Virus record (IMG/VR): IMGVR_UViG_3300030098_005115
Span: 1-56,959 of that record
From: a virus
Taxonomy: Duplodnaviria; Caudoviricetes
DNA: 56,959 nucleotides
Strand: one strand, 5' to 3'
In this document: positions 2,420 to 55,257 of the stretch, piece by piece
Layout: each line of letters starts with the position of its first letter
Position numbering within the stretch: position 1 is the first letter of the stretch
Notes under the pieces: generated by a model
Told to the model about the DNA's origin: nothing
Seen by the model: the letters and a program-made list of their open reading frames with translations, nothing else
Database searches by the model: none
Made by a program: the position numbers and the translations under genes

Positions 2420-2540
2420 TTATACTGTATATCTATACTGTATACTATATATACAGTAAAATATAATAAACAGTATATGAATACAAGTTATTTTATTAAG
2501 TATACAGTATATAGGTAAACAGTATAGGTAGTCTGTATAT
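2420..2540. repeat. TATAC/CAGTATA low-complexity tract upstream of terS-A
   Basis: Repeated TATACTG/CAGTATA in both orientations. Confidence 0.7.
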
Positions 2541-3354
2541 GGATTTTATTACTCGAAAATTTAAAAAAAATAATTTCAAAAAAGTCACTTACCCGATTTA
2601 CACTCAAGAAGAAGCTAACACCAAAGAAATCGAATACAAAGCTTGGAGAGAATGTCAGGTAGGTGACTTTGGTCTTTCCGATGATGGGTACGTTGCTGAA
2701 TGTATTTACCGGAAAGAGTACAAAGACCAAGAACAATTAACCTTTCCGTTTGGAAGACAATGGGTAAAAGGAAAAACATTATTAAAATACCTTCCGCATA
2801 AAGAAAGCGGTGAATACACTCAAGTAGGTACAAAGACATGGGTAGAAAGAGAAGCGGGAACTACTCGTACAAAAAATGCCGTAAAAGCGTATGCAGATAT
2901 GATGTTAGGTGGTCATCGAATTGATTGGGGTCTTATTGGAAAAATCTATCGAAGCGATCAGGAACGACCAGATTTAACTGCCAAACGGTTATTTAAACAG
3001 GAAAGGATACAAAAAATGCTAGATGATGAAATACAAAAAGCATTAGATACGAGAGGTATTTCACAAGGGGATGTATTGGATATGATTCTAGGAGGGATTG
3101 AAATAGCAAAAGAAAACAAAGATGCTTCTAATATGCTTCGAGGAGCAGAGCAATTTGTTAGAATCCTAGATATGTTGCCTAAAAAATCAACACAAACCGA
3201 TACAGTGCAATTGGATATGACAAGTACAATATTGGATAAGATTGCCAAGGAAGAAAAAAAGAGTCTGAAAATGTCTCAGAAAAAGGAGTTAATACTTGGA
3301 AACGGAAACAATAAAGAAAGCAATCATCAAAAAAGTAGTAGTCATTCAGTCTGA
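2539..3354 (+). CDS. putative terminase small subunit (module A)
   Basis: Just upstream of terL; C-terminal helical terS-like segment; WR..SDDG motif shared with 40869-41645. Confidence 0.55.
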   Translation: MDFITRKFKKNNFKKVTYPIYTQEEANTKEIEYKAWRECQVGDFGLSDDGYVAECIYRKEYKDQEQLTFPFGRQWVKGKTLLKYLPHKESGEYTQVGTKTWVEREAGTTRTKNAVKAYADMMLGGHRIDWGLIGKIYRSDQERPDLTAKRLFKQERIQKMLDDEIQKALDTRGISQGDVLDMILGGIEIAKENKDASNMLRGAEQFVRILDMLPKKSTQTDTVQLDMTSTILDKIAKEEKKSLKMSQKKELILGNGNNKESNHQKSSSHSV

Positions 3355-3472
3355 TACGGATAATAAAGAAACGCTAAATACGTTTCTGAAAGTATTAAAA
3401 GACGTAGCGGAAGACATGGGTTTAACTGTAACCGATGGAGATATGGAATATTTACTGGGATCGGATTATTGA
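3296..3472 (+). CDS. small hypothetical protein (58 aa)
   Basis: AGGAG plus TTG 3296, METETIKKAIIKK...; TGA overlaps terL start. Confidence 0.55.
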   Translation: METETIKKAIIKKVVVIQSDTDNKETLNTFLKVLKDVAEDMGLTVTDGDMEYLLGSDY

Positions 3473-4962
3473 AAACAGAACAAATACGGATTATTCAAAA
3501 ACTCAGGCACGATATGATGATGTTTGGAAAAGTCTGTATGCCCAATATGTTTTCTGCCGAATCTCCCGATTTTCACTATGATATTGCCAAATACCTTTCC
3601 AATCCCAATGTAAAACAATTAAATATTGTTGCTCCCAGAGGTCATGCAAAGTCTTCGATTGTAGGAGGAATCTTCCCGTTACATCACTTGATGTTTGGTG
3701 AAGGTCAAAAGTTAATTGTTCTTGTATCCAGAACTCAGGATCATGCGGTAAAGCTACTGGGTCTGTTAAAAGATACCATGGATTTTTCAGAAACATTTCG
3801 ATCTTTGTTTGGGTATTGGGGAAACCATAGTGCTAAAAGCTGGTCTAAGTCTGAAATTGAATTAAAAGATGGGTCTATGGTTATCTGCAAAGGTACGGGT
3901 CAGCAGTTACGGGGTATAAAAGTAGGAAATCAGCGACCTACATTGATTATTGTAGATGATCCAGAAGACGAAAATAACACCAAAACTGCGGAAGCCATGG
4001 AAAATAACCTTCGTTGGCTTTTGCAAAGTGCGGTTCCTTCTTTAGATCCCATGAAAGGGAGAATTGTAATCATTGGTACTCCTCAACACCAACGGTGTTT
4101 GGTAGAAACACTAAAAGAAATGCACGGATGGAAAAATCTAACCTTTAAACCAGACTTTGTAAATAATGTTTCTTTATGGGAAGACTGGTGGAGTATTGAA
4201 AAATTATTACAAAAAAAGAAAGAACTGGAGTCTATTAATCGATTATCGGTGTTTTACCGTGAATATGCCTGTGAAATTGTAGGCGATGAAGACCAGCTCT
4301 TTAAAATGGAAAACATTAAACACTATGAAGGGAAGTTTTTTCGGAAAAAAGGAAAAAGTTTTTTACATATCACCAGTTTAAATGGGGAAAAATGCGATAA
4401 AATTGTTCCTATTAATGTATTTACGGGTGTTGATCCAGCTTCAAGCGTAAAACGAGGTGCTGATTATTCTGTTATTTTTAATTTAGCAGTAGATGACAAC
4501 GAAAACAGGTATGCTTTGCCCTATTATCGTAAACACGCTACTCCACTAGAGTTAGCTGAGGCTATTGTCAGTAATTTTAGAAGATTTCGATCCGAAAAAA
4601 CACGAATTGAGTCTGTTGGTTATCAGGAAATGCTTCGAGAATACGTATTAAAACGATCCAGAGACGAAAATCTATTCATTCCTGGATTAAATATTAAAGA
4701 AAACCCTAGAAATTCCAAAAGCAACCGTCTGGAGTCTTTACAACCTATATTTGCAAACAATCAGATGCACATTTTAGAAAAACAACAAGATCTGGTGAAT
4801 GAATTGCTTTTATTTCCAAGAGGAAAGCACGATGACTTATTAGATGGGTTATATTATAGCAACAAAGGATCCTACGCCCCACATCATAGCTCTGACGATG
4901 CAGATGCCCCTTTATTGACAAAAGTAAGAAGACTTGTTACTGCAGACTGGCAAATTGCATAA
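3469..4962 (+). CDS. terL: terminase large subunit (module A)
   Basis: Walker A APRGHAKS, Walker B LIIVDD, coupling motif IGTP, nuclease motifs GVDPA and HDDLLD. Confidence 0.95.
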   Translation: MKTEQIRIIQKLRHDMMMFGKVCMPNMFSAESPDFHYDIAKYLSNPNVKQLNIVAPRGHAKSSIVGGIFPLHHLMFGEGQKLIVLVSRTQDHAVKLLGLLKDTMDFSETFRSLFGYWGNHSAKSWSKSEIELKDGSMVICKGTGQQLRGIKVGNQRPTLIIVDDPEDENNTKTAEAMENNLRWLLQSAVPSLDPMKGRIVIIGTPQHQRCLVETLKEMHGWKNLTFKPDFVNNVSLWEDWWSIEKLLQKKKELESINRLSVFYREYACEIVGDEDQLFKMENIKHYEGKFFRKKGKSFLHITSLNGEKCDKIVPINVFTGVDPASSVKRGADYSVIFNLAVDDNENRYALPYYRKHATPLELAEAIVSNFRRFRSEKTRIESVGYQEMLREYVLKRSRDENLFIPGLNIKENPRNSKSNRLESLQPIFANNQMHILEKQQDLVNELLLFPRGKHDDLLDGLYYSNKGSYAPHHSSDDADAPLLTKVRRLVTADWQIA

Positions 4963-5026
4963 AACTCCCTGTTGAGAAGAGCGAATGTAATTTTATAATA
5001 TCACTACCGTAATTCAGACGGTACCT

Positions 5027-7195
5027 ATGGCACACAACAAGCATCCTGAAGTCGCTAAATCAGAACGCTTATTAGACAACTATCATGAAAACCGATCCAC
5101 GTGGGCAATGCAAGCCATGGAGGATGACGAGTTTCGCAATAATCAGCAATGGAAACGAGAGCATAAAGACGTACTTGCTGCTCGATCTCAAGTGCCTATT
5201 GTTGATAATATCATTTATCCCGCAGTTGAACAGGCAAAAGCCTTACTGACTGCAAACAAACCAAAATTTCAATCTACTGGCAGAGATGATTCTGACGGAA
5301 AAGTCGGTAGACTGTTTTCAGATATTATGGCATATATATGGGATGTATCTAGTGGGAATGTAGAGCTAAAACAAGTAGTAGACGACTACTACGTAAAAGG
5401 TATGGGGGTCATGCAAACCTATGTTGATGGTATGGCTGATTTTGGTAAAGGTGAAGTGAAGATAAAAAGCATCGACCCCCTAGACCTTTATTTAGATCCA
5501 AATGCCAAAGATCCTTTTGCTCGAGATTCAGCGTGTATGATTATTTCTAAACGAATTACCGATGAGCAAATAAAAACTATTTATCCTTTTTTAACCGATC
5601 AGTTAGAGAATATGATGACTTCTTCATCAAACAATCGGTATCCTTCTACAAATCGAGACGGTTCAGAAGATCAACAGATTGGCCCAACAGAAGATGAAGA
5701 TGGATATTATCGTAATTATGAAATTATTGATCGATATGAAAAAATAAAACTTCCTTACTACCATTTGCTGGATTCCCTTACGGGAGAGGAAAACATTATG
5801 AACGAAGATGGATTTAATGAGTTTCTGTCAGAACCAGCGATATTTATGGATACAGCAAATGGAACACAAGCTGTTACTGAAGATAAAGCAGTAATGGAAC
5901 TTCTTCAAATATATGAAACGACTGGTGGAGTATATCATATGATGCCAGATCCCGTAACTGGGCAACCTAAAATAATGCCCGGAGAAGAACACGAAGGAGC
6001 TATTCCAAATAGCACAACTACGTTACGACCTGTGACCAATCAAGAAATGATTGAAATGGGAGTTGTTATTTTAAATGAAGTAATGGTAGACCGAATTCAG
6101 CGTATTTTGTCTGTTGGTGGTATTTTGGTAGATAATTCAATTATGGACATAGATAACTATCCTATTGTTCCATTAATGAACAGACACAATAGAAATCCCT
6201 ATCCCATGAGCGATGTTCGATTTGTAAAGCCAATTCAGGAATATATCAACAAACTGACTTCTTTAATTATTGCTCACGCTTCAAGTTCTACAAATACAAA
6301 GTTATTAATTCCCAGAGGATCGATGGATCGAAAGCAATTAGAAGAAGAATGGAGTAGAGCTGGAACAGGGGTTATTGAATACGATCCAGAACTGGGGCAA
6401 CCTATTGTAGCGGGCCCAATACCGTTGCCTAATGAGTTATACAAAAACAAAGAAGATGCCAAAATGAGTATTTATCACATTCTTGGTATTCATCCTTTGT
6501 CTCAGGGGGATCCTGGGTCTGCTCCACAAACCTACAAGGGAACAGTTGCTATTGATGAATATGCTCAACGAAGAATTAAATCAAAATTAGATGATATTGA
6601 TGGGATGTTAAATCAAATTGGCAAAATAGTAATTCAATTAATTCAACAGACCTATACGGATCAAAAATTAATTCAATTAATGAAACCAGACGGAAGAACA
6701 AGTGAAGCGTTACTAAACAAACCCGTATATGATGATTTTACGGGAGAATTAGCAGGAAGAATAAATGACGTTACTATCGGGAAATACGATCTCATTGTTG
6801 TTAGCGGTTCTACACTTCCATCAAACCGTTGGGCAAGATTTGATTACTATATGCAATTATATCAAGCTGGTATTATTGATCAAGTGGAAGTACTTCAGCA
6901 AACAGAAGTAGCTGATACTGAAGGAGTATTGGAAAGAACTTCTCTCCTTCAGCAACAACAACAAATGATACAGCAATTACAAGAAGAATTAAAACGAACT
7001 AGAGGTGATTTACAAACCTCAGAACGTGAAAGCGTACACGATAAAAAACGTGTAGAAATAGAAAAATTTAAACGTCAGTTAGGTCGAGCAAGTGATAAAA
7101 CTGCAAAAGCAGTTGAATTATATGAAGCTCGTCTAAATGATCAACTAAAAATGGAACGGAATGACGAAGCAGAAACTCCGGTTGCTGTCAGCTAG
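5027..7195 (+). CDS. portal protein, P22-like (module A)
   Basis: 722 aa after terL; C-terminal coiled coil; clear homolog of 46932-48962 (GDLQT..RES..D.KRVE.EKFK). Confidence 0.88.
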   Translation: MAHNKHPEVAKSERLLDNYHENRSTWAMQAMEDDEFRNNQQWKREHKDVLAARSQVPIVDNIIYPAVEQAKALLTANKPKFQSTGRDDSDGKVGRLFSDIMAYIWDVSSGNVELKQVVDDYYVKGMGVMQTYVDGMADFGKGEVKIKSIDPLDLYLDPNAKDPFARDSACMIISKRITDEQIKTIYPFLTDQLENMMTSSSNNRYPSTNRDGSEDQQIGPTEDEDGYYRNYEIIDRYEKIKLPYYHLLDSLTGEENIMNEDGFNEFLSEPAIFMDTANGTQAVTEDKAVMELLQIYETTGGVYHMMPDPVTGQPKIMPGEEHEGAIPNSTTTLRPVTNQEMIEMGVVILNEVMVDRIQRILSVGGILVDNSIMDIDNYPIVPLMNRHNRNPYPMSDVRFVKPIQEYINKLTSLIIAHASSSTNTKLLIPRGSMDRKQLEEEWSRAGTGVIEYDPELGQPIVAGPIPLPNELYKNKEDAKMSIYHILGIHPLSQGDPGSAPQTYKGTVAIDEYAQRRIKSKLDDIDGMLNQIGKIVIQLIQQTYTDQKLIQLMKPDGRTSEALLNKPVYDDFTGELAGRINDVTIGKYDLIVVSGSTLPSNRWARFDYYMQLYQAGIIDQVEVLQQTEVADTEGVLERTSLLQQQQQMIQQLQEELKRTRGDLQTSERESVHDKKRVEIEKFKRQLGRASDKTAKAVELYEARLNDQLKMERNDEAETPVAVS

Positions 7196-7217
7196 ACAAA
7201 TCGGATAGGAGAATAAG

Positions 7218-8135
7218 ATGGAACAACAAGTACAGGATGTCGTTGCTGAGGAAACTACAAACGACACAATAGTTGAAGAGAACGCAACTGACGTTCTAGA
7301 ACCGTTTAGTCCAGATTTCAATCCTGAAACGGGACAATTTACGGGAAACGAAAAGGTTGCATCTGAGCAACCTGTAGCTGATCAAGAGGTTCAGCCTCAA
7401 GAAAACCGCTACGAATATTGGCAAAGTAAATACGATCAGAAGGCGAGTGAGTACAACCAAATGGAACAACGGATTAAAGAACTGGAAAATGTGGAGCCAA
7501 TTGCAAAACATATCCAGGAAAATCCTTGGGTTTTAGATAACGTTGCATCATCACTCTCTGGTAACACCCCTAAGGTTGCCGGTCAATCCGAATCTCAGGG
7601 CTTACCAAAGAAACCCGAAAGACCTAATAAGCCAAGTAATTATGATCCATCAGAAGCGTACATGGATCCTGAATCTGCGAGTTTTAAATATCGTGATTCT
7701 TTAGACAACTACCGTGAAGAATTGGTTAGCTACCAAGAAAACATGGAAAATTATCGTCAAAAAGAAGCCGATAGGCAGTATCAACTGCAACAACAAAGAC
7801 AGAATGAGGAAATGGCTAAACAACAACAATTAGCGATGGCAAATAATTTAGTAAATAGTTACGGCTACACTCCGGAAAAAGCTAGTGATTTTATTAAATA
7901 TTATTCATCGCCAGATAGCGTTTCGCTAGAAAACCTTGTTGCTTTAGACAGACTAAGAAATGCTCCAAGTACAGCAGAAGTGGATACGAGGCAAAAAGCT
8001 GAGATGATGAAGAATCGTCAGAATAGAGTAAATATTCCCCCTCCTCCAAGTGTAGGCGGTGGTGAGAATCAACCACAATACTCTGATGAAGATTTATTTA
8101 ACCTTGGTTTAATGCAAAAAAAACGAAATGCTTAA
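7218..8135 (+). CDS. capsid scaffolding protein (module A)
   Basis: Acidic, Q-rich coiled coil between portal and capsid; QS(K/M)YD motif shared with 48983-49789. Confidence 0.75.
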   Translation: MEQQVQDVVAEETTNDTIVEENATDVLEPFSPDFNPETGQFTGNEKVASEQPVADQEVQPQENRYEYWQSKYDQKASEYNQMEQRIKELENVEPIAKHIQENPWVLDNVASSLSGNTPKVAGQSESQGLPKKPERPNKPSNYDPSEAYMDPESASFKYRDSLDNYREELVSYQENMENYRQKEADRQYQLQQQRQNEEMAKQQQLAMANNLVNSYGYTPEKASDFIKYYSSPDSVSLENLVALDRLRNAPSTAEVDTRQKAEMMKNRQNRVNIPPPPSVGGGENQPQYSDEDLFNLGLMQKKRNA

Positions 8136-8201
8136 TTAAATAATTTAGAGCAACTCAATACAATAGAATTTGAGTTCCTCTGAATTTAGGAGGGTAAATA
8201 A

Positions 8202-9518
8202 ATGGCGAGTAATGCCAAGAGCCTAGCGTCAAGTGGGGTTCTATATAACGACAGACGAGATTTTTACATCCGTCCAAATGTAGTTAAAGAGCTATGGACC
8301 GATGTTGCACCTTTTACAACTGTTATTGCCAATCAAAATACTATGACTGGAATGGCTGATCCACAGTTTAAAATGTTTGAACATCGTAACCCATGGGCTA
8401 AACAATACTTTCAAGTAGGAACAGCTGTTACAAGTAACCCAGACAATGATCCAGATACTTTTGTTGTTAAATCTGGTTCGGTTGTAGGAATGGAAGGTGA
8501 AGGTGGTGATTACGCTTACAATAGTTGGATTGGGCTTCAATGTGAAGTCTGGGACGCTTTAACTCCCGGATCGAATAAAAAAGGCGTAGTTTTAATTACT
8601 GCAGTAGCAGGAAGTGGTACTAGTGCCAATTTTTCTGTAAAAAACATGAATGACACAGGAAATATTGTTTCGGCTGATGGTGATTATTTAGTTGTAATTG
8701 GTAACGCCTTTGGTGAAGGTACGGTAGCCGGAACTGCATGGGCTGATGAACTTGCAGTAGTCTATAATCAATGTCAGATATTTAAAACACCATTACAAAT
8801 TACAGGCACAGTTTTACAAGCTGCCTTGCGTGGTGAATCATCTGAATTGTCTAGGCTTCGTGACCAGAAATCACAAGAACATAAGATTCAAAAGGAAAGA
8901 GCTTTCTTATTTGGACGTTCACCGATCAATATAAGTGCCGGGTTTGATGACAATTCATTATCTGATGCAAATAGCAATGCGGTTCGCTCAACAATGGGTA
9001 TTATCCCTGCAATTGAGAAACACGGTACCACATCTGGTGATGACCAGAATCGTTTCGCTATAACAGAAGCTAGTTATTCATATAGCAATTTTGTGGACGA
9101 TATGGAAAAAGTATTCCAGTACGTTCCTGAAGCGGGTATAAAGCGTGCTTTTTGCGGAATGGGTGCTATGAGTTACTGGTCTAAAATGGCGGGTAGTTCA
9201 GGATTAGCTGGAAACTCTGGTTGGACAGTTAACTTGGATGATATGAAACGTGATACACTGGGATTTAACTATAGGACTTTAGAAACACCTCATGGTGCAT
9301 TACAGTTAATTCCAACACCAGTACTACGTCAAGCGTATAATAAAACTATGCTTGTTGTATCTGACGATAACTTGTTCCATGCTCAGTATAGAGCGCCAAA
9401 GTTTCAAGCAAACATCTTAACGGATGATGCTTACGATGGTGTAAAGGATCAATACTTTTCAGATGAAGGTATCGGTGTCACGCTAATTGAAAGTCATAAA
9501 CTATTCCAAATATCATAA
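8202..9518 (+). CDS. major capsid protein (module A)
   Basis: 438 aa; QIFKT and HK..ERA.LFG motifs as in SU10-like capsid proteins; homolog of 49821-51197. Confidence 0.88.
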   Translation: MASNAKSLASSGVLYNDRRDFYIRPNVVKELWTDVAPFTTVIANQNTMTGMADPQFKMFEHRNPWAKQYFQVGTAVTSNPDNDPDTFVVKSGSVVGMEGEGGDYAYNSWIGLQCEVWDALTPGSNKKGVVLITAVAGSGTSANFSVKNMNDTGNIVSADGDYLVVIGNAFGEGTVAGTAWADELAVVYNQCQIFKTPLQITGTVLQAALRGESSELSRLRDQKSQEHKIQKERAFLFGRSPINISAGFDDNSLSDANSNAVRSTMGIIPAIEKHGTTSGDDQNRFAITEASYSYSNFVDDMEKVFQYVPEAGIKRAFCGMGAMSYWSKMAGSSGLAGNSGWTVNLDDMKRDTLGFNYRTLETPHGALQLIPTPVLRQAYNKTMLVVSDDNLFHAQYRAPKFQANILTDDAYDGVKDQYFSDEGIGVTLIESHKLFQIS

Positions 9519-9530
9519 GGGAGGTTTATT

Positions 9531-9959: not shown

Positions 9960-9977
9960 ACATAAACAAAACGTGTT

Positions 9978-9998
9978 GGGGGAGTGTAATGCTCCCCT
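9978..9998 (+). terminator. stem-loop after capsid genes
   Basis: GGGGAG-TGTAATG-CTCCCC; no strong T-tail. Confidence 0.45.
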
Positions 9999-10013
9999 GA
10001 CATTAAAAATACT

Positions 10014-11546: not shown

Positions 11547-11605
11547 CCAAGATATCCATGAGAAGAGTCAAGCTCGGTAAGATATCGTAGTATAGGAGAA
11601 ACAAG

Positions 11606-14965: not shown

Positions 14966-14969
14966 CACT

Positions 14970-42856: not shown

Positions 42857-42860
42857 AATC

Positions 42861-44775: not shown

Positions 44776-44830
44776 ACAATATTGCACTTAATAATCTTTT
44801 AGTGGTAATATAGCTTACATATTTATAACT

Positions 44831-46932: not shown

Positions 46933-48962
46933 TGGATAAAGACCCTAGAGCATTATACAATGAAGATCTCCATCGTCAATGGCGAGATGCCCGTTCTGAT
47001 TGGGATACTGAGGCTCGTAAAGACATTGATTTTTATCTTGGTAATCATTTTACTACTGACGAGTCCGATGAACTAGCCAGCCGTAACCAAGCAGATATTC
47101 CTATGGATCGAATATCTTCAGCAATAGAAAAGTTTAAAGCTGTTTTAACAGCAAGACCACCAGCATTTACAATCACTCCTAGGGAAGACTCTGACGTTCA
47201 GATGGCTACAGCATGGAGGACAATAATGGGTTACATCTGGCAAACATCAGATGGTGATTCACAAATAAAACAAGCCATTCAAGACTACGCTACAACAGGG
47301 ATGGGTTATTTATATGCTTATATAGATAGCGAATCAGATTTTGGTAGAGGCGATGTCCGGTTTACATATATTGACCCATTTAGAGTCTACGCATCACCCT
47401 CATCTCGAGACCGATGGTTCAGTGATTCAGATGGTATTATCCTTTCAACCATCCTCACAGGTGAGCAGGTTGTCGGCCTCTACCCTGAATTAGGTGATCA
47501 AAAAGACCCAGAAACTGGAGAAACTATACCGGGTTTAATTAGGCAGATTTCAGGGTTTGTGTATGATGAAGAAGATTACCCTTCCAGTCAAAATAGAAAT
47601 TCAATGACTGTATTTACCCCAGCCGAGGTAAAGGATAAAGATTATTTTGAGGTAAAGAAATATCAGATACTCGAAAGGTTTTATAAGGTAAAGGTTCCTT
47701 ATTTTAGAGTTATAGATATGCAAAGCCAAGAGGAAACAATTTTATCAGAAGAAGAGTTTTTTAAGTTTTCTCAAGAAAACAAAGAGGCACTTGAGATTGA
47801 TGCTTTTAGAGCAGTGAGGGTTTTACAAACCAGAGTGAAGGTTTGTGCTTCTATTGGCGAGATAGTTCTTTATGAACAGATTTTAAATACAGATCAGTAC
47901 CCAATCGTACCACTGCCCAATATCTGGACAGGCACTCCGTACCCAAAGAGTGACGTTTCAAGAGCTAGACCTATGCAAAGACTGCTAAATAAGCTTTGGT
48001 CTCTTGCTCTTTCTCACGCTCAGGCTTCTGCTGGGTTAAAGCTTTTAGTTCCTATTGGAAGCGTTGATGATATAAGCCAGTTGGAGCAGGACTGGGCAAA
48101 CCCCAATGCTGTTATTGAAATAGATTCCTCCCAAGGGGAGCCTCACTATCCTGCTCCGCAGGCTTTAGCTGGTGAGTTTTATAGGTTAATACAGCAGTCA
48201 GAATTTTATATTGATTTTATTTTTGGACTGCCAGAGATGATGCATGGCTTTGCAGAAAAAGCACCCGAGACAGTAAAAGGAACAGAAAGAATGATTGCAT
48301 TAGGATCTGAAAGGCCAAAGTCTAAATTAAGAGATATTGAGTTTAGTATAAATCGCTTAGGTAAAGTGCTTTACAACCTAGCAAAAGGTCACTATACTCA
48401 CAAAAAGATTTTTAGAATTGTTCAACCAAACAATGATATGACAGAGGTGATGGTTAATTTTTATACTGACACAACCAATGCCGTATTAGATATTAAAAAA
48501 TATCGTCACTTCTTAGACCAGCACGACATCAGGATTGAGCCGGGTTCGACTATGCCTTCTAATAAATGGGCAGAGCTTGGTGTTTATCTTGAGGCATTTC
48601 AAATGGGTATTGTAGACAGGTATGAAGTCCTCAAGAAGAATCCAGAAATATTTGATAAGGAAGGTGTAATGAGAAGGACAGATGAGAGACAGCAGATGAT
48701 GCAACAAATACAAGGTATGGAAGAACAATTAAAGAATTTGCAGGGAGACTTGCAAACAGCCCAAAGAGAGTCTATCAGCGATAGAAAGAGAGTCGAAGTT
48801 GAGAAATTCAAAAGTAGATTATCTGAGGTATCTTCAGAATCTAAAGCTGACAGAAGGGTACAACGTAGTAAACTCGAAAACGAGGTGAAGCTCGAAGTGG
48901 GGAAATTGGCAAACAATCTCAAGGATATTGAGAGAAACGCTGGTTCAGCCCCAGAAGCGTAG
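46932..48962 (+). CDS. portal protein, P22-like (module B)
   Basis: 676 aa; homolog of 5027-7195. Confidence 0.88.
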   Translation: MDKDPRALYNEDLHRQWRDARSDWDTEARKDIDFYLGNHFTTDESDELASRNQADIPMDRISSAIEKFKAVLTARPPAFTITPREDSDVQMATAWRTIMGYIWQTSDGDSQIKQAIQDYATTGMGYLYAYIDSESDFGRGDVRFTYIDPFRVYASPSSRDRWFSDSDGIILSTILTGEQVVGLYPELGDQKDPETGETIPGLIRQISGFVYDEEDYPSSQNRNSMTVFTPAEVKDKDYFEVKKYQILERFYKVKVPYFRVIDMQSQEETILSEEEFFKFSQENKEALEIDAFRAVRVLQTRVKVCASIGEIVLYEQILNTDQYPIVPLPNIWTGTPYPKSDVSRARPMQRLLNKLWSLALSHAQASAGLKLLVPIGSVDDISQLEQDWANPNAVIEIDSSQGEPHYPAPQALAGEFYRLIQQSEFYIDFIFGLPEMMHGFAEKAPETVKGTERMIALGSERPKSKLRDIEFSINRLGKVLYNLAKGHYTHKKIFRIVQPNNDMTEVMVNFYTDTTNAVLDIKKYRHFLDQHDIRIEPGSTMPSNKWAELGVYLEAFQMGIVDRYEVLKKNPEIFDKEGVMRRTDERQQMMQQIQGMEEQLKNLQGDLQTAQRESISDRKRVEVEKFKSRLSEVSSESKADRRVQRSKLENEVKLEVGKLANNLKDIERNAGSAPEA

Positions 48963-48982
48963 AGACATCTTAAGGAGGTATT

Positions 48983-49789
48983 ATGAACACACTAGAACAA
49001 CAGGAAGTTGGAGCATTAGAAAATGCCGGAGGCAGTGAAACTGCATTCGTGGAGGATATTGTTAATCAAGAGACCCAAGCTCAAGCAGAGCCTATTCAGG
49101 AACAGCAAGAGCAGGGCTATGTAGACCCTCAACAAGAAGGGACTATTTCAGTAGACTATGAGGCAGAATCTAAAAAGTTTCAGTCTATGTATGATCGAGC
49201 TCAGGCCGAAAATGCAAAGCTAAAACAATTAGAACCTTTAGGTCAGTTACTGGAACAGAGACCTGACATTGTTCAGACGATACAAAACAGTATAGCCAAC
49301 CCACAGAACGCTCAAGAATCACAGCCAGCAATTTCAAGTGACGACTTTAATCCTTGGGAAGCCTTTACGGATGACAATTCTCAATCAAGTCAATATGTCT
49401 CTAAGAAGATAGATGACTTGGTAAATCAAAGAATACAATCTGAAATGGCTAAACAACAACAACAGGTACAGGCAGAGATGGCGATGAACAACACTGTTAG
49501 TGAACTTAGGTCTACCTATAAAATGTCAGATAATGAGATTCGTGACTTTTTAGCGTTCACTACACAACCGAAAGAAGCTGTCGGTCTGAACAATCTCGTA
49601 AAGCTATATAAAATGCAAAATGGGACACCTGTTGAAAACAATGATACAATGGAAGCGGTAAGTGCCGCTAAACAAGCTCCACGAACTGCTGGAGTCCTTC
49701 AAGGACAAGCTCCTGAAAGTCCAAAGACAGATCAAGAAAAAGTCTGGACGACCATCATGGGTAGCGGTAGTGGAACGGCACTTCCCTAA
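48983..49789 (+). CDS. capsid scaffolding protein (module B)
   Basis: Acidic, Q-rich; FQSMYD; AAGGAGG RBS. Confidence 0.75.
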   Translation: MNTLEQQEVGALENAGGSETAFVEDIVNQETQAQAEPIQEQQEQGYVDPQQEGTISVDYEAESKKFQSMYDRAQAENAKLKQLEPLGQLLEQRPDIVQTIQNSIANPQNAQESQPAISSDDFNPWEAFTDDNSQSSQYVSKKIDDLVNQRIQSEMAKQQQQVQAEMAMNNTVSELRSTYKMSDNEIRDFLAFTTQPKEAVGLNNLVKLYKMQNGTPVENNDTMEAVSAAKQAPRTAGVLQGQAPESPKTDQEKVWTTIMGSGSGTALP

Positions 49790-49820
49790 TTAACAAACCT
49801 AAAAACAATAGAGGAAAAAA

Positions 49821-51197
49821 ATGGCAATTTCATATAATTCTGGAACATTAAAGTCCAGTGATATAACTGCTTCAACTACCTCTGCTGGCGTAGGACAAGC
49901 CCCTGATCGTAGACGGCTATATAATTTTGGAGATAGAGTTGCTGAACTGGCACCTGAAGAATCTCCATTTTTCGTCTACCTTTCAAAGGTGGCTAAAGCA
50001 CCTACTGACGACCCTGTATTCCGTTATTTGGAAAATAGGAATAAAATCAACTGGACAGATCGCTCATTCTTACTTGCGGCGGCTGTAAACAGTGGTTCTG
50101 CTGTATCAGCAGGAACTTCATACTCGTTTACAGTAGACACAAGCGGTGGAGCTTCTGTTGATTGGTTACTCAAAGGTATGGTGTTTGTTGTGAATACGGT
50201 TGACGGTACGGCTGGGATTGGTCATACGATTGTTCGTGTGGATTCCGCCGTTACTGACTTAGGATCATCATCTTCCTTTACTGGTAAGATCATTGATGTC
50301 TCTAACTCTAATGTTAGTGGATACAATGTCCTTGCAGATAATGATAGTTGTCAAGTAATTGGTACTTCATTTGAAGAAGGTTCTGGTTCTCCTGACGTTT
50401 TCTCAACTGAGCTTGAAGATAGTTATGGGTACACCCAGATCTTTAAGACAGCCGCAGAGATGACTAACACAGCATACGCTACGAGGTATAGAGGATACGC
50501 AGACGAATGGTCTCGTATCTGGGCAGATAAATTACGAGAGCATAAAGTTGATATTGAAAGAGCTATGCTATTTGGGCAAAAAGCCCGGGTAGGTGGCATT
50601 CAATACACTGAAGGAATCGTTGGACATATTGTAAAAAATGTAAACCCATCATCTTCCGATGGTGCGTTTTCATATACTTCTGGCAGTGCATACTACAGAA
50701 CTGCGGCACAGTCTGAGTTTACATATGATAGACTTCTTTCTGACTTAGAAGTAATCTTCGACCCAGCAAGGGGAGGATCAAGTGATAAGCTTGTTCTTTG
50801 TAGCTTGCCTGTAATTACATTCTTTAACAAGTTAGGCGATGGAGCATTCGTTGATGCTTCAATGGGCCATAGCAACGCACCTTATCGGGTGAACTTTGAC
50901 TCTCGTGAGGGAGCTTTTGGTCATTCTATTATGGTAATTGACACTATTCATGGTCGCTTAAACCTAGTGAAAGAGCCACTGTTTCGTGGTATCGCATCTG
51001 GTTTTATGCTTATGGCTGATATGAGTCAAGTTGCTTACAGACCACTTGTTGGAAATGGAATTAATCGTGATACTCAAGTAATGACCAATGTTCAATCAGC
51101 AGATGAAGATCTTAGAAAAGACATGATCTTGACCGAAGCCGGTCTTGAGATTACCCTTTCTGAGTCTCATGCGTTGTACAACATTGAAGGCTTATAA
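49821..51197 (+). CDS. major capsid protein (module B)
   Basis: TQIFKT, HKVDIERAMLFG; homolog of 8202-9518. Confidence 0.88.
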   Translation: MAISYNSGTLKSSDITASTTSAGVGQAPDRRRLYNFGDRVAELAPEESPFFVYLSKVAKAPTDDPVFRYLENRNKINWTDRSFLLAAAVNSGSAVSAGTSYSFTVDTSGGASVDWLLKGMVFVVNTVDGTAGIGHTIVRVDSAVTDLGSSSSFTGKIIDVSNSNVSGYNVLADNDSCQVIGTSFEEGSGSPDVFSTELEDSYGYTQIFKTAAEMTNTAYATRYRGYADEWSRIWADKLREHKVDIERAMLFGQKARVGGIQYTEGIVGHIVKNVNPSSSDGAFSYTSGSAYYRTAAQSEFTYDRLLSDLEVIFDPARGGSSDKLVLCSLPVITFFNKLGDGAFVDASMGHSNAPYRVNFDSREGAFGHSIMVIDTIHGRLNLVKEPLFRGIASGFMLMADMSQVAYRPLVGNGINRDTQVMTNVQSADEDLRKDMILTEAGLEITLSESHALYNIEGL

Positions 51198-51208
51198 GGA
51201 GTGCGATT

Positions 51209-51676
51209 ATGAAAGCGGCAAGTTTAAATACGTCAAGCGGTCAATATGGTGGCGGCCCAAAAGATGTGGTATTCGTACCAGATGTAGCGGCTTACACTGT
51301 ATCTGCAAATAACAGTAGTAAGGTTCATGTAATGCCTGATCTGACAGCAGATTGTACAATTACATTACCTACTGAAGAAGCAGGTCTTTATTTTGAGTTT
51401 TGGTACGGGGGCACAGCCGCCGATGCCCAAGACTGGATCATAAAGACAACTGGAAATAGCAACTATATGATTGGTGGCCTAGTTGGTCACGATACTGATA
51501 ACGGTGGTGATGACACTGCTGTTATTGATTCTGACAACAATAGTAATTCACAACTTTCTATTTTTACTCCTATAGCAGGAACTTGTGTAAAGATAGTTTG
51601 CGATGGTGTTCTTTGGTATGTCAACGGTCATGTTATTTCAGCAACTGATACCTTCTTGGCTTTTGCAGATCAATAA
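51209..51676 (+). CDS. putative capsid decoration protein
   Basis: Homolog of 9531-9959. Confidence 0.6.
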   Translation: MKAASLNTSSGQYGGGPKDVVFVPDVAAYTVSANNSSKVHVMPDLTADCTITLPTEEAGLYFEFWYGGTAADAQDWIIKTTGNSNYMIGGLVGHDTDNGGDDTAVIDSDNNSNSQLSIFTPIAGTCVKIVCDGVLWYVNGHVISATDTFLAFADQ

Positions 51677-51758
51677 TCCGAATAAATAAGGATAACAGTT
51701 TTTAGTACTGTGGGGGTCTTCGTATAAAGGTTGGCCCCCGAAACTAAAAGGAAGATTT

Positions 51759-51968
51759 ATGAAAATTAAAAAATGTATTCACTGTGGAGCTCCAAATAAA
51801 GAGGGCTGGTTTTACTGCAAAAATTGTGGTAAAAAAGCTTCAGAGAGTAAGTATACTACTAACTTGTGGATGATTTCAGATATGGGTAAAAGAACAGATG
51901 TTGAAATATCTACCCAAAGTATGGATCAAAACATGAGTTCGATGAGAAAAAGAATTGGTTATGGCTAG
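51759..51968 (+). CDS. zinc-ribbon protein
   Basis: CIHCG...CKNCG. Confidence 0.65.
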   Translation: MKIKKCIHCGAPNKEGWFYCKNCGKKASESKYTTNLWMISDMGKRTDVEISTQSMDQNMSSMRKRIGYG

Positions 51969-52272
51969 AAAAAAAGATCCAAGATTAGCTCGTGCTGGAG
52001 TAACAGCTTTTAATAAACCAAAAAGAACTCCGGGGCATCCCAAGAAAAGCCATGTGGTTGTGGCTAAAGTTGGCGATAAGGTAAAGACAATACGGTTTGG
52101 ACAGCAGGGAGTAAAAACAAATCAAACAGTCGGGCAAAGAAAAGCGTTTAAATCTCGCCATGCTAAAAACATAGCAAAGGGGCCAATGTCAGCCGCCTAC
52201 TGGGCAAATCGAGTTAAGTGGAGCCCCAGTAAAACAAAATCAAAATCAATGAAATGGAAGAAAGGAAGTTAG
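51955..52272 (+). CDS. small highly basic protein
   Basis: NKPKRTP.HP.KSH.V...IRFGQQG...FKSRH...YWA. Confidence 0.7.
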   Translation: MVMARKKDPRLARAGVTAFNKPKRTPGHPKKSHVVVAKVGDKVKTIRFGQQGVKTNQTVGQRKAFKSRHAKNIAKGPMSAAYWANRVKWSPSKTKSKSMKWKKGS

Positions 52273-52439
52273 TAATGAATAAAACAGTAAAAGCTCCTAA
52301 AGGTTATCATTGGATGAAATCTGGTTCTAGTTACAAGCTGATGAAAAATCCAGCAGGTGGCTACAAACCACACAAGGGAGCTAGTGTAAATGCTAGTTTT
52401 AAAGTGCAAATGGCACATAAAAAAACTAAAAAGAAGTAA
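52254..52439 (+). CDS. small basic protein
   Basis: KAPKGYHWMK. Confidence 0.6.
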   Translation: MEERKLVMNKTVKAPKGYHWMKSGSSYKLMKNPAGGYKPHKGASVNASFKVQMAHKKTKKK

Positions 52440-52561
52440 TGTCTAAAAAAGTTAGTTGGATGTGGGGTGGTAAAAAACATTATGGCACCTTGATAAGAGA
52501 GACAAAAACTCATAAGTTTGCGAGAACAAAAAACGGAAAAGTAAAAAAGATTAAAAAGTAA
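52439..52561 (+). CDS. 40-aa basic protein
   Basis: MSKKVSWMWGGKKHYGTLIRETKTHKFART...; TAATG coupling on both sides. Confidence 0.6.
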   Translation: MSKKVSWMWGGKKHYGTLIRETKTHKFARTKNGKVKKIKK

Positions 52562-52959
52562 TGGCTGGGTCTGCTAAAAAAACAAAAGGAGCTATGTGGA
52601 AACGAATAGTCGCTTCAGTTAAAGCTGGTAATAAAGGGGGGAGACCGGGGCAGTGGAGTGCTAGAAAAGCACAATTAGCTACGGCAAGATATAAAAAGGC
52701 TGGCGGTGGCTATAAAGGAAAAAAGTCGGCCAGCAATAAATTAACTAAATGGTCAAAGCAGAAATGGGACTATGTTAGTAAGGGGGATGAGAAGAAACCT
52801 CGGAAAAAAAGAGGTCGTTATTTACCGGAGTCTGTTAGAAAGAGTTTAACTGCATCTGAGAAGTCAGCTACAAACAGAAGGAAAAGGGCGGCTTCTGCAA
52901 AAGGAAAGCAAAAAGCTAAATACTCTAAAAAAGTAGCAAGGAAAGTAAGAAGAGCGTAG
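52561..52959 (+). CDS. highly basic protein (GQWSARKAQL motif)
   Basis: K/R-rich; GG.PGQWSARKAQL, W..Q.W, RYLP. Confidence 0.7.
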   Translation: MAGSAKKTKGAMWKRIVASVKAGNKGGRPGQWSARKAQLATARYKKAGGGYKGKKSASNKLTKWSKQKWDYVSKGDEKKPRKKRGRYLPESVRKSLTASEKSATNRRKRAASAKGKQKAKYSKKVARKVRRA

Positions 52960-52960
52960 T

Positions 52961-54082
52961 ATGGCAACATTTGAAGCACAAGTAGAAGCATTAACAAGTT
53001 TGTCTTTGGATGGTAGTAGTGCACCCACTCAAAGTGAGTTAAGTCAGTTCCTTACAGACGGTGCTAAAGAAGTTCTTAATGCTTTGCCAAGAATGAAGCA
53101 ATCTTTATTTACGACTTCCAATGATTTAAATAGTAGTAGTACATATCTTACACTGGGAGGGTCAGAGGTGTTTAGTGTAACAAGAGATGATGGCACCATC
53201 AACCAACCTTGCCGAGCTGTCAGAGCAGAGCTTGGTGGTAAGATTAGAGATGCCGATGATATGATGGCGGCTACAGTAACAGACCCTGCTTACTACATTA
53301 CTAATGGAATTCTAAGCGTTGTTCCAGAGCCAACAAACTCTCAAAATGCCCATGTTCAAACATTAAACTATCCCACAGTTGCATTTGGAGACTCTGCTAT
53401 AACTAAGTTTCCAGACGATGCAGAATATTTAGTTGTTTTGTATGGGGCTATAAAGTCTTTGCAAAACTATCAATCAAACCAAACAGAAAGACTAATAAGC
53501 GGTTCAAGCATTAGCACTCCTTTAACTGCAATAGGCACAGAACTTGGCGAAACCCAAGCCATTTGTGACCTGATAAACACTCAGGTAGATGCGGCTGTAA
53601 CTCAACTAGGAGAATCTTCAACTCAAGTAGATGCTGATATTGATACTGCTTTAGCCGCTATAAACACAGCCGCAGACAGGATAAATACTGCTGTGGCATT
53701 AGCAAATACTCAGTTTGACAGTGCTGTTACTTCTAATACAGCAGAAGATGTAGAGCTTGCAAATTCTCATGTTAATGCCGGCAACGGTTTTTTGTCAGAA
53801 GCTAGGTCTTCAGCAGAAGAAGCAAGCTCTTTTGCTTCGGAGGTGCAGGCTAGGATAGCTCAAGTAGGCGGATACAGTCAAGTTGTTTCTGGTTATATAA
53901 ATTCAGCTCAGGGGTATGCAAATGAAATACAGTCTAAAATAAGTATCTCTCAAGCTTATTCCAACGAGGTGCAGACAAAGATTGCATTGGAAAGAGAGCA
54001 TTATTCAAGGCATGAAAAAATGCAAATGAAGCTACAAGCTGATTACGATAAAGGTTTACAATATTTGATGGGGGGTTCTTAA
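52961..54082 (+). CDS. putative neck/adaptor protein with Ala/Ser-rich coiled-coil insertion
   Basis: Homolog of 10938-11546. Confidence 0.65.
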   Translation: MATFEAQVEALTSLSLDGSSAPTQSELSQFLTDGAKEVLNALPRMKQSLFTTSNDLNSSSTYLTLGGSEVFSVTRDDGTINQPCRAVRAELGGKIRDADDMMAATVTDPAYYITNGILSVVPEPTNSQNAHVQTLNYPTVAFGDSAITKFPDDAEYLVVLYGAIKSLQNYQSNQTERLISGSSISTPLTAIGTELGETQAICDLINTQVDAAVTQLGESSTQVDADIDTALAAINTAADRINTAVALANTQFDSAVTSNTAEDVELANSHVNAGNGFLSEARSSAEEASSFASEVQARIAQVGGYSQVVSGYINSAQGYANEIQSKISISQAYSNEVQTKIALEREHYSRHEKMQMKLQADYDKGLQYLMGGS

Positions 54083-54430
54083 ATGGCTGTACACGCATTA
54101 ACAGTTAAGAAAATTATTAGCAGAGTCAGGCAAGTATTTCCAGAAGCTCCAGAAGCTTATATTATGAGTTTAATTAATGAAGCCTTAGTAGAGATGGGCA
54201 ATCACCACACAAAAGTAGTTAAGGCTAAAATAAACACTGTAGCTAATCAAATGTTTTATGATATTAGTGATAGTGCTAATGACTCAAGTAGTAATAAATT
54301 AGAAGCCAATAAAATATTTAGAGTTGATCTTATGGACAATGAAGGCGATTATATTAAAATACCAAGACTGGTTGATAAAGGTATCTTACTTATGGATGTT
54401 ACCAGCGAAGCAATAAACGAGCCTGATTGA
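54083..54430 (+). CDS. putative head-tail adaptor (N-terminal-like part)
   Basis: Homolog of 10014-10277. Confidence 0.55.
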   Translation: MAVHALTVKKIISRVRQVFPEAPEAYIMSLINEALVEMGNHHTKVVKAKINTVANQMFYDISDSANDSSSNKLEANKIFRVDLMDNEGDYIKIPRLVDKGILLMDVTSEAINEPD

Positions 54431-54861
54431 TGGCTAGTAATATACAATACCCTGAAGATGTAGCTGTTTGGTTTGTTGAAGGTGACTCACTCGCCTTAGT
54501 TACCAATGTTGACAGTGCCGGTACAGCCAGATCTTCTTCTAGGAAGAAATGGAAAGCGATAGAAGAATCTGTCTCTAATGGCTTGTTACTGCACTATTAC
54601 GGGGAACCAAACCCTGTAACTGCTATTACAGACACTCCAGATATTGACAATACTTTACACAGTGCTCTTGTAGACTATGTAAAAAGATGTTTATATATGG
54701 ATAGGGCAGGGGCTTCAAGAGACCCTAATGTTGCACAAACCTCAATGGCTTTGATGGGTCAACACGAAAAAAGATTTAATGACATTCTAAAAAGATTTGG
54801 AATGAGAAAAAGAGATAAGACTGGCGGTACTCGTGCAGTTTTACCTTTTAATTTTACATAA
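54427..54861 (+). CDS. putative head-tail adaptor/neck protein
   Basis: Homolog of 10277-10687. Confidence 0.55.
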   Translation: MMASNIQYPEDVAVWFVEGDSLALVTNVDSAGTARSSSRKKWKAIEESVSNGLLLHYYGEPNPVTAITDTPDIDNTLHSALVDYVKRCLYMDRAGASRDPNVAQTSMALMGQHEKRFNDILKRFGMRKRDKTGGTRAVLPFNFT

Positions 54862-54921
54862 CTGTTTGTATAGGGAGTGGTTCTTGCCCCGCAAGACAAA
54901 CAAAATTAGCAGGAGAACACT

Positions 54922-55257
54922 ATGGCTAACCTACAAAAATTTAGGGCCCATGAATCATTAAACGTTGAGACGGCTGGAGAATGGCAAGTACAAAGTGCTG
55001 TTACGGCTGATGCTGATGGAGTTGCTGTTGATGTAACTAGCTATCATCAAGTTCATCTAATGTCTGATAATGATTTTTATTTTACTTTTAATACCACTGG
55101 GACAGATTCCGACATAAATACATCTAACGACCTTTACTTAAAAGGTGGTGACACAATATACACATTAAAGGTACCTCGAGGTCTTGGCAATTCTGTACAT
55201 TTAATAATGGAACGAAAAGGTAGCTCTGATGCAACAGTTAGAGTTATCCTAGCTTAG
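54922..55257 (+). CDS. small beta-rich virion protein, MANLQK family
   Basis: MANLQKFRAHESLN; AGGAG RBS. Confidence 0.65.
   Translation: MANLQKFRAHESLNVETAGEWQVQSAVTADADGVAVDVTSYHQVHLMSDNDFYFTFNTTGTDSDINTSNDLYLKGGDTIYTLKVPRGLGNSVHLIMERKGSSDATVRVILA

What the first reader, a model, noticed from the sequence alone, without database searches (positions are those of the whole stretch)
2539..55257. Two complete, homologous but divergent head-packaging modules on one contig
Seen: terS-terL-portal-scaffold-capsid-decoration-neck-MANLQK-fibre occurs twice (2539-14203 and 40869-56959) with gene-by-gene shared motifs, but there is only one nozzle/ejection set (15701-27008). By eye, A uses CGN Arg codons more and B uses AGA/AGG more. 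Tailed phages normally carry one such module. Inference: most likely two related phages joined at the fibre gene. If physically real, it is a cointegrate or a dual-capsid genome sharing one tail apparatus, which would be very unusual.
Basis: partly seen in the sequence, partly recalled or inferred. Interest (0 to 1): 0.75.

Follow-up and report, generated by a model that had tools for sequence, protein, structure and literature searches.

The report
Two phage genomes mis-joined by assembly
The contig really carries two divergent head-packaging gene sets, but it is almost certainly an assembly artefact in which part of one marine phage was stitched onto a complete related phage at a tail-fibre segment that the two share.

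Summary
Two homologous, divergent head modules lie at 2539-14203 and 40618-56959 (TerL 30%, portal 33-37%, capsid 27%, fibre 51% aa identity), with one 14.5-27 kb tail block.

- The last 89 nt of the contig (56871-56959) are identical to 13692-13780 inside the first fibre gene. This is the longest exact repeat in the window, and the contig stops at its last base.
- Closing the sequence there gives a 43,179-bp circle (13781-56959). Its size and gene order match complete relatives of the second module (42,844 and 42,949 bp).
- Window 1-13.7 kb is collinear with a different lineage of 45.9-51.1 kb that lacks the 15.7-27 kb genes.
- All 10 near-complete relatives examined carry one portal gene.
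- Synonymous codon usage changes at the fibre: 9 of 9 tail genes and 18 of 20 early genes group with module B.
- In one run, which may be the source sample, exact contigs have depth about 50 left of the join and 32 right of it.

The real biology is ordinary: the two lineages exchange fibre cassettes. Interest is low.

The parts
1..2538 (-). End of the leftward arm of phage A (small ORFs 3-278, 565-903, 1630-1986).
   Evidence: ORF list. The 1630-1986 product has a 28-30% homologue lying divergently next to terS in both A-type complete relatives, G009 and G006.
2539..11887 (+). Head and neck module of phage A: terS-position gene 2539-3354, TerL 3469-4962, portal 5027-7195, scaffold-position gene 7218-8135, major capsid 8202-9518, decoration-position gene 9531-9959, neck-position genes 10014-11546, MANLQK protein 11606-11887.
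   Evidence: PHROGs: phrog_38, phrog_156, phrog_1328, phrog_12296. Collinear at 36-87% aa identity with A-type genomes G009 and G006. A-like codon usage in 9 of 11 genes, leave-one-out. Exact Logan contigs in run X1 have depth 49.8-59.7 over 4001-12053.
12023..14203 (+). Composite tail-fibre ORF (726 aa). Up to 13691 it is phage A's fibre. From 13781 it is inferred to be the C-terminus of phage B's fibre, including the Peptidase_S74 chaperone domain (aa 630-681).
   Evidence: Pfam PF13884, E 5e-9. PHROG tail fibre and tail spike families. The N-terminal 48 aa match the A-type genome G009 at 54%. Both fibre ORFs are in the same codon phase at the join, by arithmetic on the coordinates.
13692..13780 (+). 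Copy 1 of the 89-nt exact repeat: the inferred mis-join point.
   Evidence: Identical to 56871-56959. Longest exact repeat in the window; the next longest is 35 nt.
13781..27008 (+). Phage B fibre C-terminus and tail block: 14516-14965, 14970-15287, 15428-15691, 830-aa 15701-18193, 18193-18906, 18970-20025, 20028-20723, 20695-21609, 1799-aa 21609-27008.
   Evidence: Homologues lie in the same order after the fibre in B-type complete genomes G001 and G002 (31-60% aa identity). None of 15701-27008 is found in A-type G009 or G006. 9 of 9 genes have B-like codon usage. One 19,948-nt exact Logan contig starting at 14184 has depth 32 in X1. No functional family found.
27188..39716 (-). Phage B leftward (early/replication) arm, including a PD-(D/E)XK nuclease (30400-31128) and an ArdC-N plus zincin metallopeptidase protein (38805-39716).
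   Evidence: Pfam. Eight (G001) or seven (G002) homologues at 36-83% aa identity, in the same order and relative orientation. 18 of 20 genes have B-like codon usage.
40384..40526 (.). 9-bp tandem array (ATACTATAT, 15.9 copies) in the divergent intergenic region of phage B.
   Evidence: Tandem Repeats Finder, score 170. Function not tested.
40618..55257 (+). Head and neck module of phage B: terS 41091-41645, small genes 41945-43190, TerL 43180-44775, 44831-45238, 564-aa 45238-46932, portal 46932-48962, scaffold-position gene 48983-49789, major capsid 49821-51197, 51209-54861, MANLQK protein 54922-55257.
   Evidence: PHROGs: phrog_51, phrog_38, phrog_156, phrog_1328. Collinear at 41-93% aa identity with G001 and G002.
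55268..56959 (+). Phage B tail-fibre gene, cut off by the contig end. Its inferred continuation is 13781-14203.
   Evidence: 3'-open ORF. 51% aa identity to fibre A. An independent 16,149-bp metagenome scaffold is 100% identical over 54972-56799 and itself ends at 56799.
56871..56959 (+). Copy 2 of the 89-nt exact repeat, ending at the last base of the contig.

Best explanation
The contig is an in-silico chimera. Two related but distinct uncultured marine phages occur together in the same samples. Their tail-fibre genes share a recently exchanged distal segment (about 500 nt at 88% identity) that contains an 89-nt stretch of exact identity.

A short-read graph assembler walked along phage A (window 1-13691) and entered the shared 89-mer (13692-13780). 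It left on phage B's branch (13781 onward) and went once round phage B's circularly assembling genome: tail block, leftward early arm, head module, fibre. It stopped when it reached the same 89-mer again, at 56959.

The true objects are:
(i) a complete phage B of about 43.2 kb (13781-56959, closing onto itself);
(ii) a 13.7-kb fragment of a phage A whose complete genome is probably 46-51 kb.

Neither phage has two head modules.

Shown: the repeat and its position at the contig end; the synteny with two different families of complete genomes; the codon-usage switch; the depth difference in one run.
Inferred: the assembler's path, because no reads could be laid across the join.
For: 1. Repeat at the contig end. 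The only DNA self-similarity in the window is 13286-13780 vs 56462-56959 (87.8%). Its last 89 nt are identical, and the contig ends on the last identical base.

2. Size. Closing at that point gives 56959 - 13780 = 43,179 bp. Five B-type near-complete relatives are 41,578-42,949 bp; two have terminal repeats and 100% CheckV completeness.

3. Gene order. In G001 and G002 the order is B-head, neck, fibre, homologues of 15701/18193/18970/20695/21609 (20028 in G001 only), homologues of 27188...31246 on the other strand, then B terS. That is the predicted circle.

4. The other lineage. A-type complete relatives G009 and G006 carry the A head, with the 1630-1986 homologue divergent beside terS as in window 1-2538. 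They have no detectable homologue of 15701-27008. The 1799-aa protein matched 3 of 5 B-type records and 0 of 5 A-type records.

5. One module per genome. 10 of 10 near-complete relatives have a single portal ORF. Among 47 loci of at least 12 kb, none carries both module types. Homologues of 14516 or 14970 follow the fibre in 8 of 21 B-type loci and 1 of 26 A-type loci.

6. Codon usage. In a log-likelihood test trained only on the two head modules, 9 of 9 tail genes and 18 of 20 early genes are B-like. Arg CGN is 75/130 in A against 35/208 in the tail block, p 1.6e-14. B against the tail block is not significant for Glu, Lys and Gly.

7. Depth. In run X1, which may be the source sample, seven exact contigs over 4001-13129 have depth 59.7, 49.8, 50.8, 50, 50.6, 35.3 and 53.1. 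The single 19,948-nt contig from 14184 on has depth 32. A tail block less abundant than head module A cannot sit on every molecule that carries A.

8. An independent metagenome scaffold of phage B also ends inside the conserved fibre segment, at 56799.

9. [quoted passage not shown]
Against: No read or read pair was seen linking 56.9 kb to 13.78 kb. All four runs laid were Logan contigs, which break at any shared 31-mer.

The depth of head module B was not measured, because the single read-laying run covered 4001-24000 only.

Depth is one figure per contig. It comes from one run that may be the source sample. One A-side contig (12024-12541) has depth 35.3, close to the B value.

In X11 and X9 the A-to-tail depth ratio is similar (about 10 vs 6-7.5, and about 4 vs 3-4). 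That is also what a fixed physical stoichiometry would give, though those contigs are short and carry mismatches.

89 is not a standard assembler k. The explanation needs A's true continuation to differ from B's right after 13780, and no contig showing A's own continuation was found (0 matches).

Natural B-type contigs with an A-like fibre shaft exist (L176, L162), so the true crossover could lie further upstream in the fibre.
Confidence: 0.92

Rival explanations
1. The molecule is real. A phage or cointegrate of at least 57 kb carries two head-packaging modules and one tail block, formed by recombination between phages A and B at the shared fibre segment. The contig merely stops at the internal repeat.
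For: The contig is continuous, and the fibre ORF across the join is intact and in frame. Eight runs from two studies hold 96-98% of the sampled words of 8800-18700, so both sides co-occur. Natural recombination in this fibre gene happens between the two lineages (L176). A-to-tail depth ratios are roughly similar in three runs.
Against: 0 of 10 near-complete relatives have two portal genes. The contig is 5.9-14.0 kb longer than the largest relative of either type examined, and would still be incomplete. By general knowledge of headful limits, it is inferred to exceed what capsids sized for 42-51 kb can package. Codon usage switches at the fibre. Depth is about 50 against 32 in X1. 13781-56959 is by itself a complete B-type gene circle. 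Co-occurrence in runs is equally expected for two phages of one habitat.
Confidence: 0.03
2. It is still an assembly chimera, but the crossover lies further upstream in the fibre gene, at about 12.0-12.5 kb. On this reading the A-like fibre shaft (about 12430-13690) belongs to a B-type strain, as in contigs L176 and L162, rather than to phage A.
For: L176 has a B-type MANLQK gene (89% aa) and a B-type fibre N-terminus, followed by a shaft 88% identical in DNA to 12428-13668 and then a 14516 homologue (81%). L162 joins a shaft 88% identical to 12437-13426 to a stretch 96% identical to 14246-15792. The X1 contig over 12024-12541 has depth 35.3, near the B value of 32.
Against: The X1 contig over 12694-13129 has depth 53.1, matching phage A. 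B's own fibre is contiguous with B's head up to 56959 in the window, and up to 56799 in an independent scaffold. This reading does not explain why the contig ends exactly at the end of the 89-mer.
Confidence: 0.04
3. The join is a physical but artificial molecule: a chimera made during library preparation or amplification, by template switching at the shared fibre segment.
For: The shared segment (498 nt at 88%, with 89 nt exact) could prime template switching.
Against: No such molecule is needed. An exact repeat of 89 nt is enough to mislead a graph assembler. Nothing seen in any call points to chimeric reads.
Confidence: 0.01

Closest known systems
Inter-genome chimeric contigs in short-read viral metagenome assemblies (benchmarked in PMC5610896; passages read)
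   Same: Two co-existing viruses with a highly similar region are joined there. The contig is longer than either genome type. Composition and depth change at the join. An exact repeat sits at the join and at the contig end.
   Different: One partner is present as a full circle and the other as a 13.7-kb tail. The artefact therefore looks like a genome with a duplicated head module, and the record carries a CheckV completeness of 100%.
Horizontal exchange of tail-fibre distal cassettes between phages (mosaic fibres with a Peptidase_S74 intramolecular chaperone C-terminus; general knowledge, recalled)
   Same: The fibre is the only place where the two lineages share DNA identity: 88% over 498 nt, while head proteins are 25-37% identical at the amino-acid level. 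The C-terminus carries PF13884. B-type contigs with an A-like shaft exist (L176, L162).
   Different: Nothing unusual. The N-terminal anchor stays lineage-specific and the distal part is swapped, as commonly described.
Uncultured marine phage lineages with phrog_38-type large terminase
   Same: Both TerL proteins hit phrog_38, both portals phrog_156 and both capsids phrog_1328.
   Different: No cultured relative. The best TerL matches in 50,697 phage records are below 27% identity, and there is no megablast match. Host unknown.

Membership tests
Assembly chimera of two genomes joined at a shared repeat | An exact repeat shared by the two sources lies at the join, and a path end coincides with it. 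| tested here: met
   89-nt exact repeat, 13692-13780 = 56871-56959. The contig ends on its last base, and it is the longest exact repeat in the window.
Assembly chimera of two genomes joined at a shared repeat | Each side of the join is collinear with a different family of complete genomes. | tested here: met
   13781-56959 has the gene circle of B-type G001 and G002. 1-13.7 kb has the order of A-type G009 and G006, which lack the 15701-27008 genes.
Assembly chimera of two genomes joined at a shared repeat | Composition is discontinuous at the join. | tested here: met
   Codon log-likelihood: A 9 of 11 genes A-like; tail block 0 of 9 A-like; early arm 2 of 20 A-like. Arg CGN 58% vs 17%, p 1.6e-14.
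Assembly chimera of two genomes joined at a shared repeat | Coverage is unequal on the two sides. | tested here: inconclusive
   X1: about 50 (five of seven contigs at 49.8-53.1) against 32. These are per-contig k-mer depths in one run that may be the source. One A-side contig is at 35.3, and head module B was not measured.
Assembly chimera of two genomes joined at a shared repeat | No read pair or long read supports the join, and reads support the alternative closure (56959 to 13781). | not testable with these tools
Genuine phage genome with two head-packaging modules (cointegrate or dual capsid) | The same architecture recurs in independent related genomes. | tested here: not met
   0 of 10 near-complete relatives have a second portal gene. 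0 of 47 loci of at least 12 kb have both module types.
Genuine phage genome with two head-packaging modules (cointegrate or dual capsid) | Genome length is compatible with the lineage's capsid. | tested here: not met
   56,959 bp and still open-ended, against 41.6-42.9 kb (B-type, n=5) and 45.9-51.1 kb (A-type, n=5). That this exceeds packaging capacity is an inference.
Tail fibre with C-terminal intramolecular chaperone (Pfam PF13884, Peptidase_S74) | Match to PF13884 above the gathering score at the C-terminus. | tested here: met
   36.7 bits against a cut-off of 22, aa 630-681 of the 12023-14203 ORF. Self-cleavage not tested.

The most novel reading that the evidence does not exclude
The join reflects a physically real heterodimeric molecule: a recombination intermediate or cointegrate formed in cells co-infected by the two phage lineages through their shared fibre cassette. 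It would carry both head modules and one tail block. Such a molecule would show inter-lineage recombination in progress in the ocean.
Probability: 0.03. Interest if true: 0.65.

Novelty: not a real feature. Interest (0 to 1): 0.1.

Why it matters
As biology it matters little. A dual-head phage would be remarkable, but the evidence says this one does not exist.

It matters for data hygiene. A public viral record of 56,959 bp, rated 100% complete, is most likely a complete phage of about 43.2 kb plus 13.7 kb of another phage. It would inflate genome-size, gene-content and clustering statistics, and it could seed false claims of module duplication.

The signature found here could be screened for across viral contig catalogues:
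- the contig end is identical to an internal stretch;
- hallmark genes are duplicated at low identity;
- codon usage switches at the join.

The real residue is modest. Two uncultured marine phage lineages exchange tail-fibre distal cassettes, which suggests, but does not show, overlapping hosts.

Tried and rejected
- Megablast of 1-25000 and 32000-56959 against 50,697 phage records gave no match.
- TerL tblastn found only matches below 27% identity, so no named relative or host could be given.
- The 830-aa protein 15701-18193 found one weak viral-contig relative (L001). PHROGs and Pfam gave no function for the tail block, so 'nozzle/ejection' stays a guess from size and position. I did not fold any protein.
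- An exact-pattern scan for phage A's fibre just before the join gave 0 viral contigs, so A's own continuation after the 89-mer was not seen.
- The matching scan for B found only L162, a third fibre variant rather than phage B itself.
- The single metagenome scan found one scaffold of 16,149 bp, of which only 1,828 nt were released (100% identical to 54972-56799). The record is not held for further reading, so I could not check that its other end lies near 40.65 kb.
- Read laying: all runs are Logan contigs. No listed contig bridges 13129-14184 in X1, but 2,184 pieces were not shown and such contigs break at shared 31-mers, so this says nothing either way. The partial holders X9, X10 and X11 gave short pieces on both sides with mismatches and did not separate A from B. 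Many loose ends at 13160-13200 and 14147-14153 show only that many fibres in these samples share motifs.
- The fibre C-terminus query found three loci. L177 was uninformative.
- A literature search for phages with two portal or capsid genes returned 0 papers for the terms used. That is a narrow search and no proof of absence. One search was mis-formed.
- Codon usage of the fibre pieces themselves is not discriminating: |LLR| of at most 5.9.
Full report
WHAT THE WINDOW IS

The window is an entire stand-alone virus record of 56,959 bp. It is classed as linear, with a CheckV completeness of 100%. It has four blocks:
- 1-2538: small ORFs on the minus strand;
- 2539-27008: plus-strand genes;
- 27188-39716: minus-strand genes;
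- 40618-56959: plus-strand genes, ending in an ORF (55268-56959) that runs off the contig.

No tRNA was found.

blastp of the first plus-strand block against the last pairs the genes in order:

| Gene | Identity | E-value |
|---|---|---|
| TerL | 30% | 1e-67 |
| Portal | 33-37% | 2e-71 |
| Scaffold-position gene | 25% | 2e-7 |
| Major capsid | 27% | 3e-32 |
| Decoration-position gene | 30% | 2e-7 |
| Neck-position genes | 24-27% | |
| MANLQK protein | 35% | 1e-4 |
| Fibre | 51% | 5e-119 |

- The PHROG families agree: phrog_38, phrog_156 and phrog_1328 occur in both modules. Both small pre-fibre proteins start MANLQK.
- The two terS-position proteins are not detectably similar. Only B's hits a terS family.
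- None of the nine proteins of 14516-27008 has a counterpart in the last block, so there is one tail block.
- No family search gave any of the nine a function.

THE JOIN

A self-comparison of the window finds a single stretch of DNA similarity: 13286-13780 against 56462-56959, at 87.8%.

The alignment and an exact-match scan show that its last 89 nt are identical (13692-13780 = 56871-56959). This is the longest exact repeat in the window; the next is 35 nt. The contig ends on the last identical base.

Both fibre ORFs are in the same codon phase there. The ORF 12023-14203 therefore reads through the point without a break.

This geometry is what a graph assembler leaves when it enters a shared edge from one genome, leaves on the other genome's branch, goes round a circle and meets the shared edge again. 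That path is my inference; I saw no reads.

WHAT LIES ON EACH SIDE

- Near-complete B-type records are 41,578-42,949 bp. Two have terminal repeats and 100% completeness.
- Near-complete A-type records are 45,891-51,050 bp.

I fetched two complete records of each type and mapped every window protein on them.

B-type (G001, G002). These have one head module and this order:
1. B head;
2. neck;
3. fibre;
4. homologues of 15701, 18193, 18970, 20695 and 21609, with 20028 in G001 only (31-60% aa identity);
5. homologues of 27188...31246 on the opposite strand (36-83%);
6. B terS.

That is exactly the circle obtained by closing the window at the repeat: 56959 - 13780 = 43,179 bp.

A-type (G009, G006). 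These have one A-type head module. A homologue of the window's 1630-1986 ORF lies divergently beside terS, as in window 1-2538. There is no detectable homologue of 15701-27008.

Further counts:
- The 1799-aa protein matched 3 of 5 B-type records and 0 of 5 A-type records.
- All 10 near-complete records have one portal ORF. In the A-type records the two matches are two segments of one 725-741-aa frame.
- Among loci of at least 12 kb, homologues of 14516 or 14970 follow the fibre in 8 of 21 B-type loci and 1 of 26 A-type loci. Any tail-block hit occurs in 10 of 21 and 4 of 26. Many loci end before that region. None of the 47 carries both module types.

COMPOSITION

I trained a synonymous-codon model on the two head modules only, leaving the fibres out.
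- 9 of 9 tail-block genes and 18 of 20 early genes are B-like.
- Leave-one-out gives 9 of 11 A genes as A-like and 17 of 19 B genes as B-like.
- Arg CGN is 75/130 in A against 35/208 in the tail block, p 1.6e-14. GAG, AAG and GGC differ likewise.
- B against the tail block is not significant for Glu, Lys and Gly. It is significant for Arg (p 6e-4), but in the same direction, away from A.
- The three leftmost ORFs and the fibre pieces are too short to call.

READS

Twenty marine or seawater metagenome runs hold part of 8800-18700. Eight of them, from two studies, hold 96-98% of the words; five of the eight are flagged as possible sources. All are kept as Logan contigs.

Run X1 may be the source sample. 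Its exact contigs were:

| Window range | Depth |
|---|---|
| 4001-5341 | 59.7 |
| 5315-7265 | 49.8 |
| 7597-9182 | 50.8 |
| 9529-9991 | 50 |
| 9975-12053 | 50.6 |
| 12024-12541 | 35.3 |
| 12694-13129 | 53.1 |
| 14184 onward (one 19,948-nt contig) | 32 |

A tail block rarer than head module A cannot be on every molecule that carries A.

Caveats on this evidence:
- these are per-contig k-mer depths from one, possibly non-independent, run;
- one A-side contig is near the B value;
- X11 and X9 show a similar A-to-tail ratio on short, mismatched pieces;

Nothing can be said about bridging reads.

INDEPENDENT ASSEMBLIES

One metagenome scaffold of 16,149 bp begins at window 56799 and is 100% identical back to 54972. 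A second assembly of phage B therefore also breaks inside the conserved fibre segment. Only 1,828 nt of it were released, and the rest could not be read.

THE REAL BIOLOGY UNDERNEATH

The fibre is a mosaic hot spot.
- L162 has a shaft 88% identical to 12437-13426 and a C-terminus 91% identical to 13538-14229. It is then 96% identical to 14246-15792.
- L176 has a B-type MANLQK gene (89% aa) and a B-type fibre N-terminus. These are followed by a shaft 88% identical to 12428-13668 and a 14516 homologue at 81%.
- The lineage-specific N-terminal anchor is thus kept and the distal part is exchanged. The C-terminus carries the Peptidase_S74 chaperone domain.

This is ordinary tail-fibre mosaicism. 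It explains why two phages whose head proteins are only 25-37% identical share an 89-nt exact stretch.

It leaves a small chance that the crossover lies further upstream in the fibre. The depth of 53.1 over 12694-13129, and the position of the contig end, argue for 13692-13780.

COMPARISON WITH WHAT IS KNOWN

Simulated viromes yield chimeric contigs when co-existing viruses share highly similar regions: under 2.5% of assemblies, and under 5% of contigs of 10 kb or more (PMC5610896, passages read).

Neither lineage has a cultured relative. TerL identity is below 27% to anything in 50,697 phage records, and there is no megablast match.

A narrow literature search for phages with two portal or capsid genes found nothing. 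That is no proof of absence.

VERDICT

A real dual-module molecule is at about 0.03.

The feature is an artefact, so interest is low. The useful outcome is that this record should be split into a complete phage of about 43.2 kb (13781-56959) and a 13.7-kb fragment of another phage.

Noticed in passing
window 12428-14203; L176:1565-6318; L162:259-4065: Natural exchange of the tail-fibre distal cassette between the two lineages. L176 has B-type neck and fibre-anchor genes but a shaft 88% identical in DNA to the window's A fibre. L162 joins an A-like shaft to a stretch 96% identical to 14246-15792. This suggests shared or overlapping hosts.
   Followed up: partly
window 40384-40526: A 9-bp tandem array (ATACTATAT, 15.9 copies, 81% matches) lies in the AT-rich divergent intergenic region between the early and late arms of phage B. 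It could be an origin, an iteron set or a regulatory site. An independent 16,149-bp scaffold of module B would, if collinear, end near 40.65 kb.
   Followed up: no
window 38805-39716 (-): The first gene of the leftward arm encodes an ArdC-N domain plus a zincin-like metallopeptidase (PF08401 E 1e-28, PF18818 E 1e-29). This is an anti-restriction-type protein, better known from conjugative plasmids.
   Followed up: no
window 41945-42856 and 44831-45238; G001:19328-20313; G002:3727-4346; G009:12341-13299; G006:28466-30201: A set of small genes sits in different places. In the window's phage B, homologues of 41945, 42271 and 42575 lie between terS and TerL, and 44831 lies just after TerL. In all four complete relatives mapped, of both lineages, the 41945/42271(/42575) set lies after the fibre; 44831 moves there only in A-type G006. 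42271-42588 has a weak, sub-threshold DUF2570 hit. This may be a movable lysis cassette.
   Followed up: no
window 19001-21000: A local GC rise to 0.45, against 0.35-0.40 elsewhere, within the tail block (genes 18970-20025 and 20028-20723).
   Followed up: no
window 12672-13338 and 14006-14672: Summed contig depth is very high in seawater runs (X10: 3127 and 1169), with dozens of loose ends at 13160-13200 and 14147-14153. Short fibre repeat motifs are shared by many different phages in these samples.
   Followed up: no
G006 (51,050 bp, holds L101): This A-type record is about 4 kb longer than the other four A-type near-complete records (45.9-47.1 kb) and contains 10 N. I did not check whether it too is a mis-assembly.
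   Followed up: no
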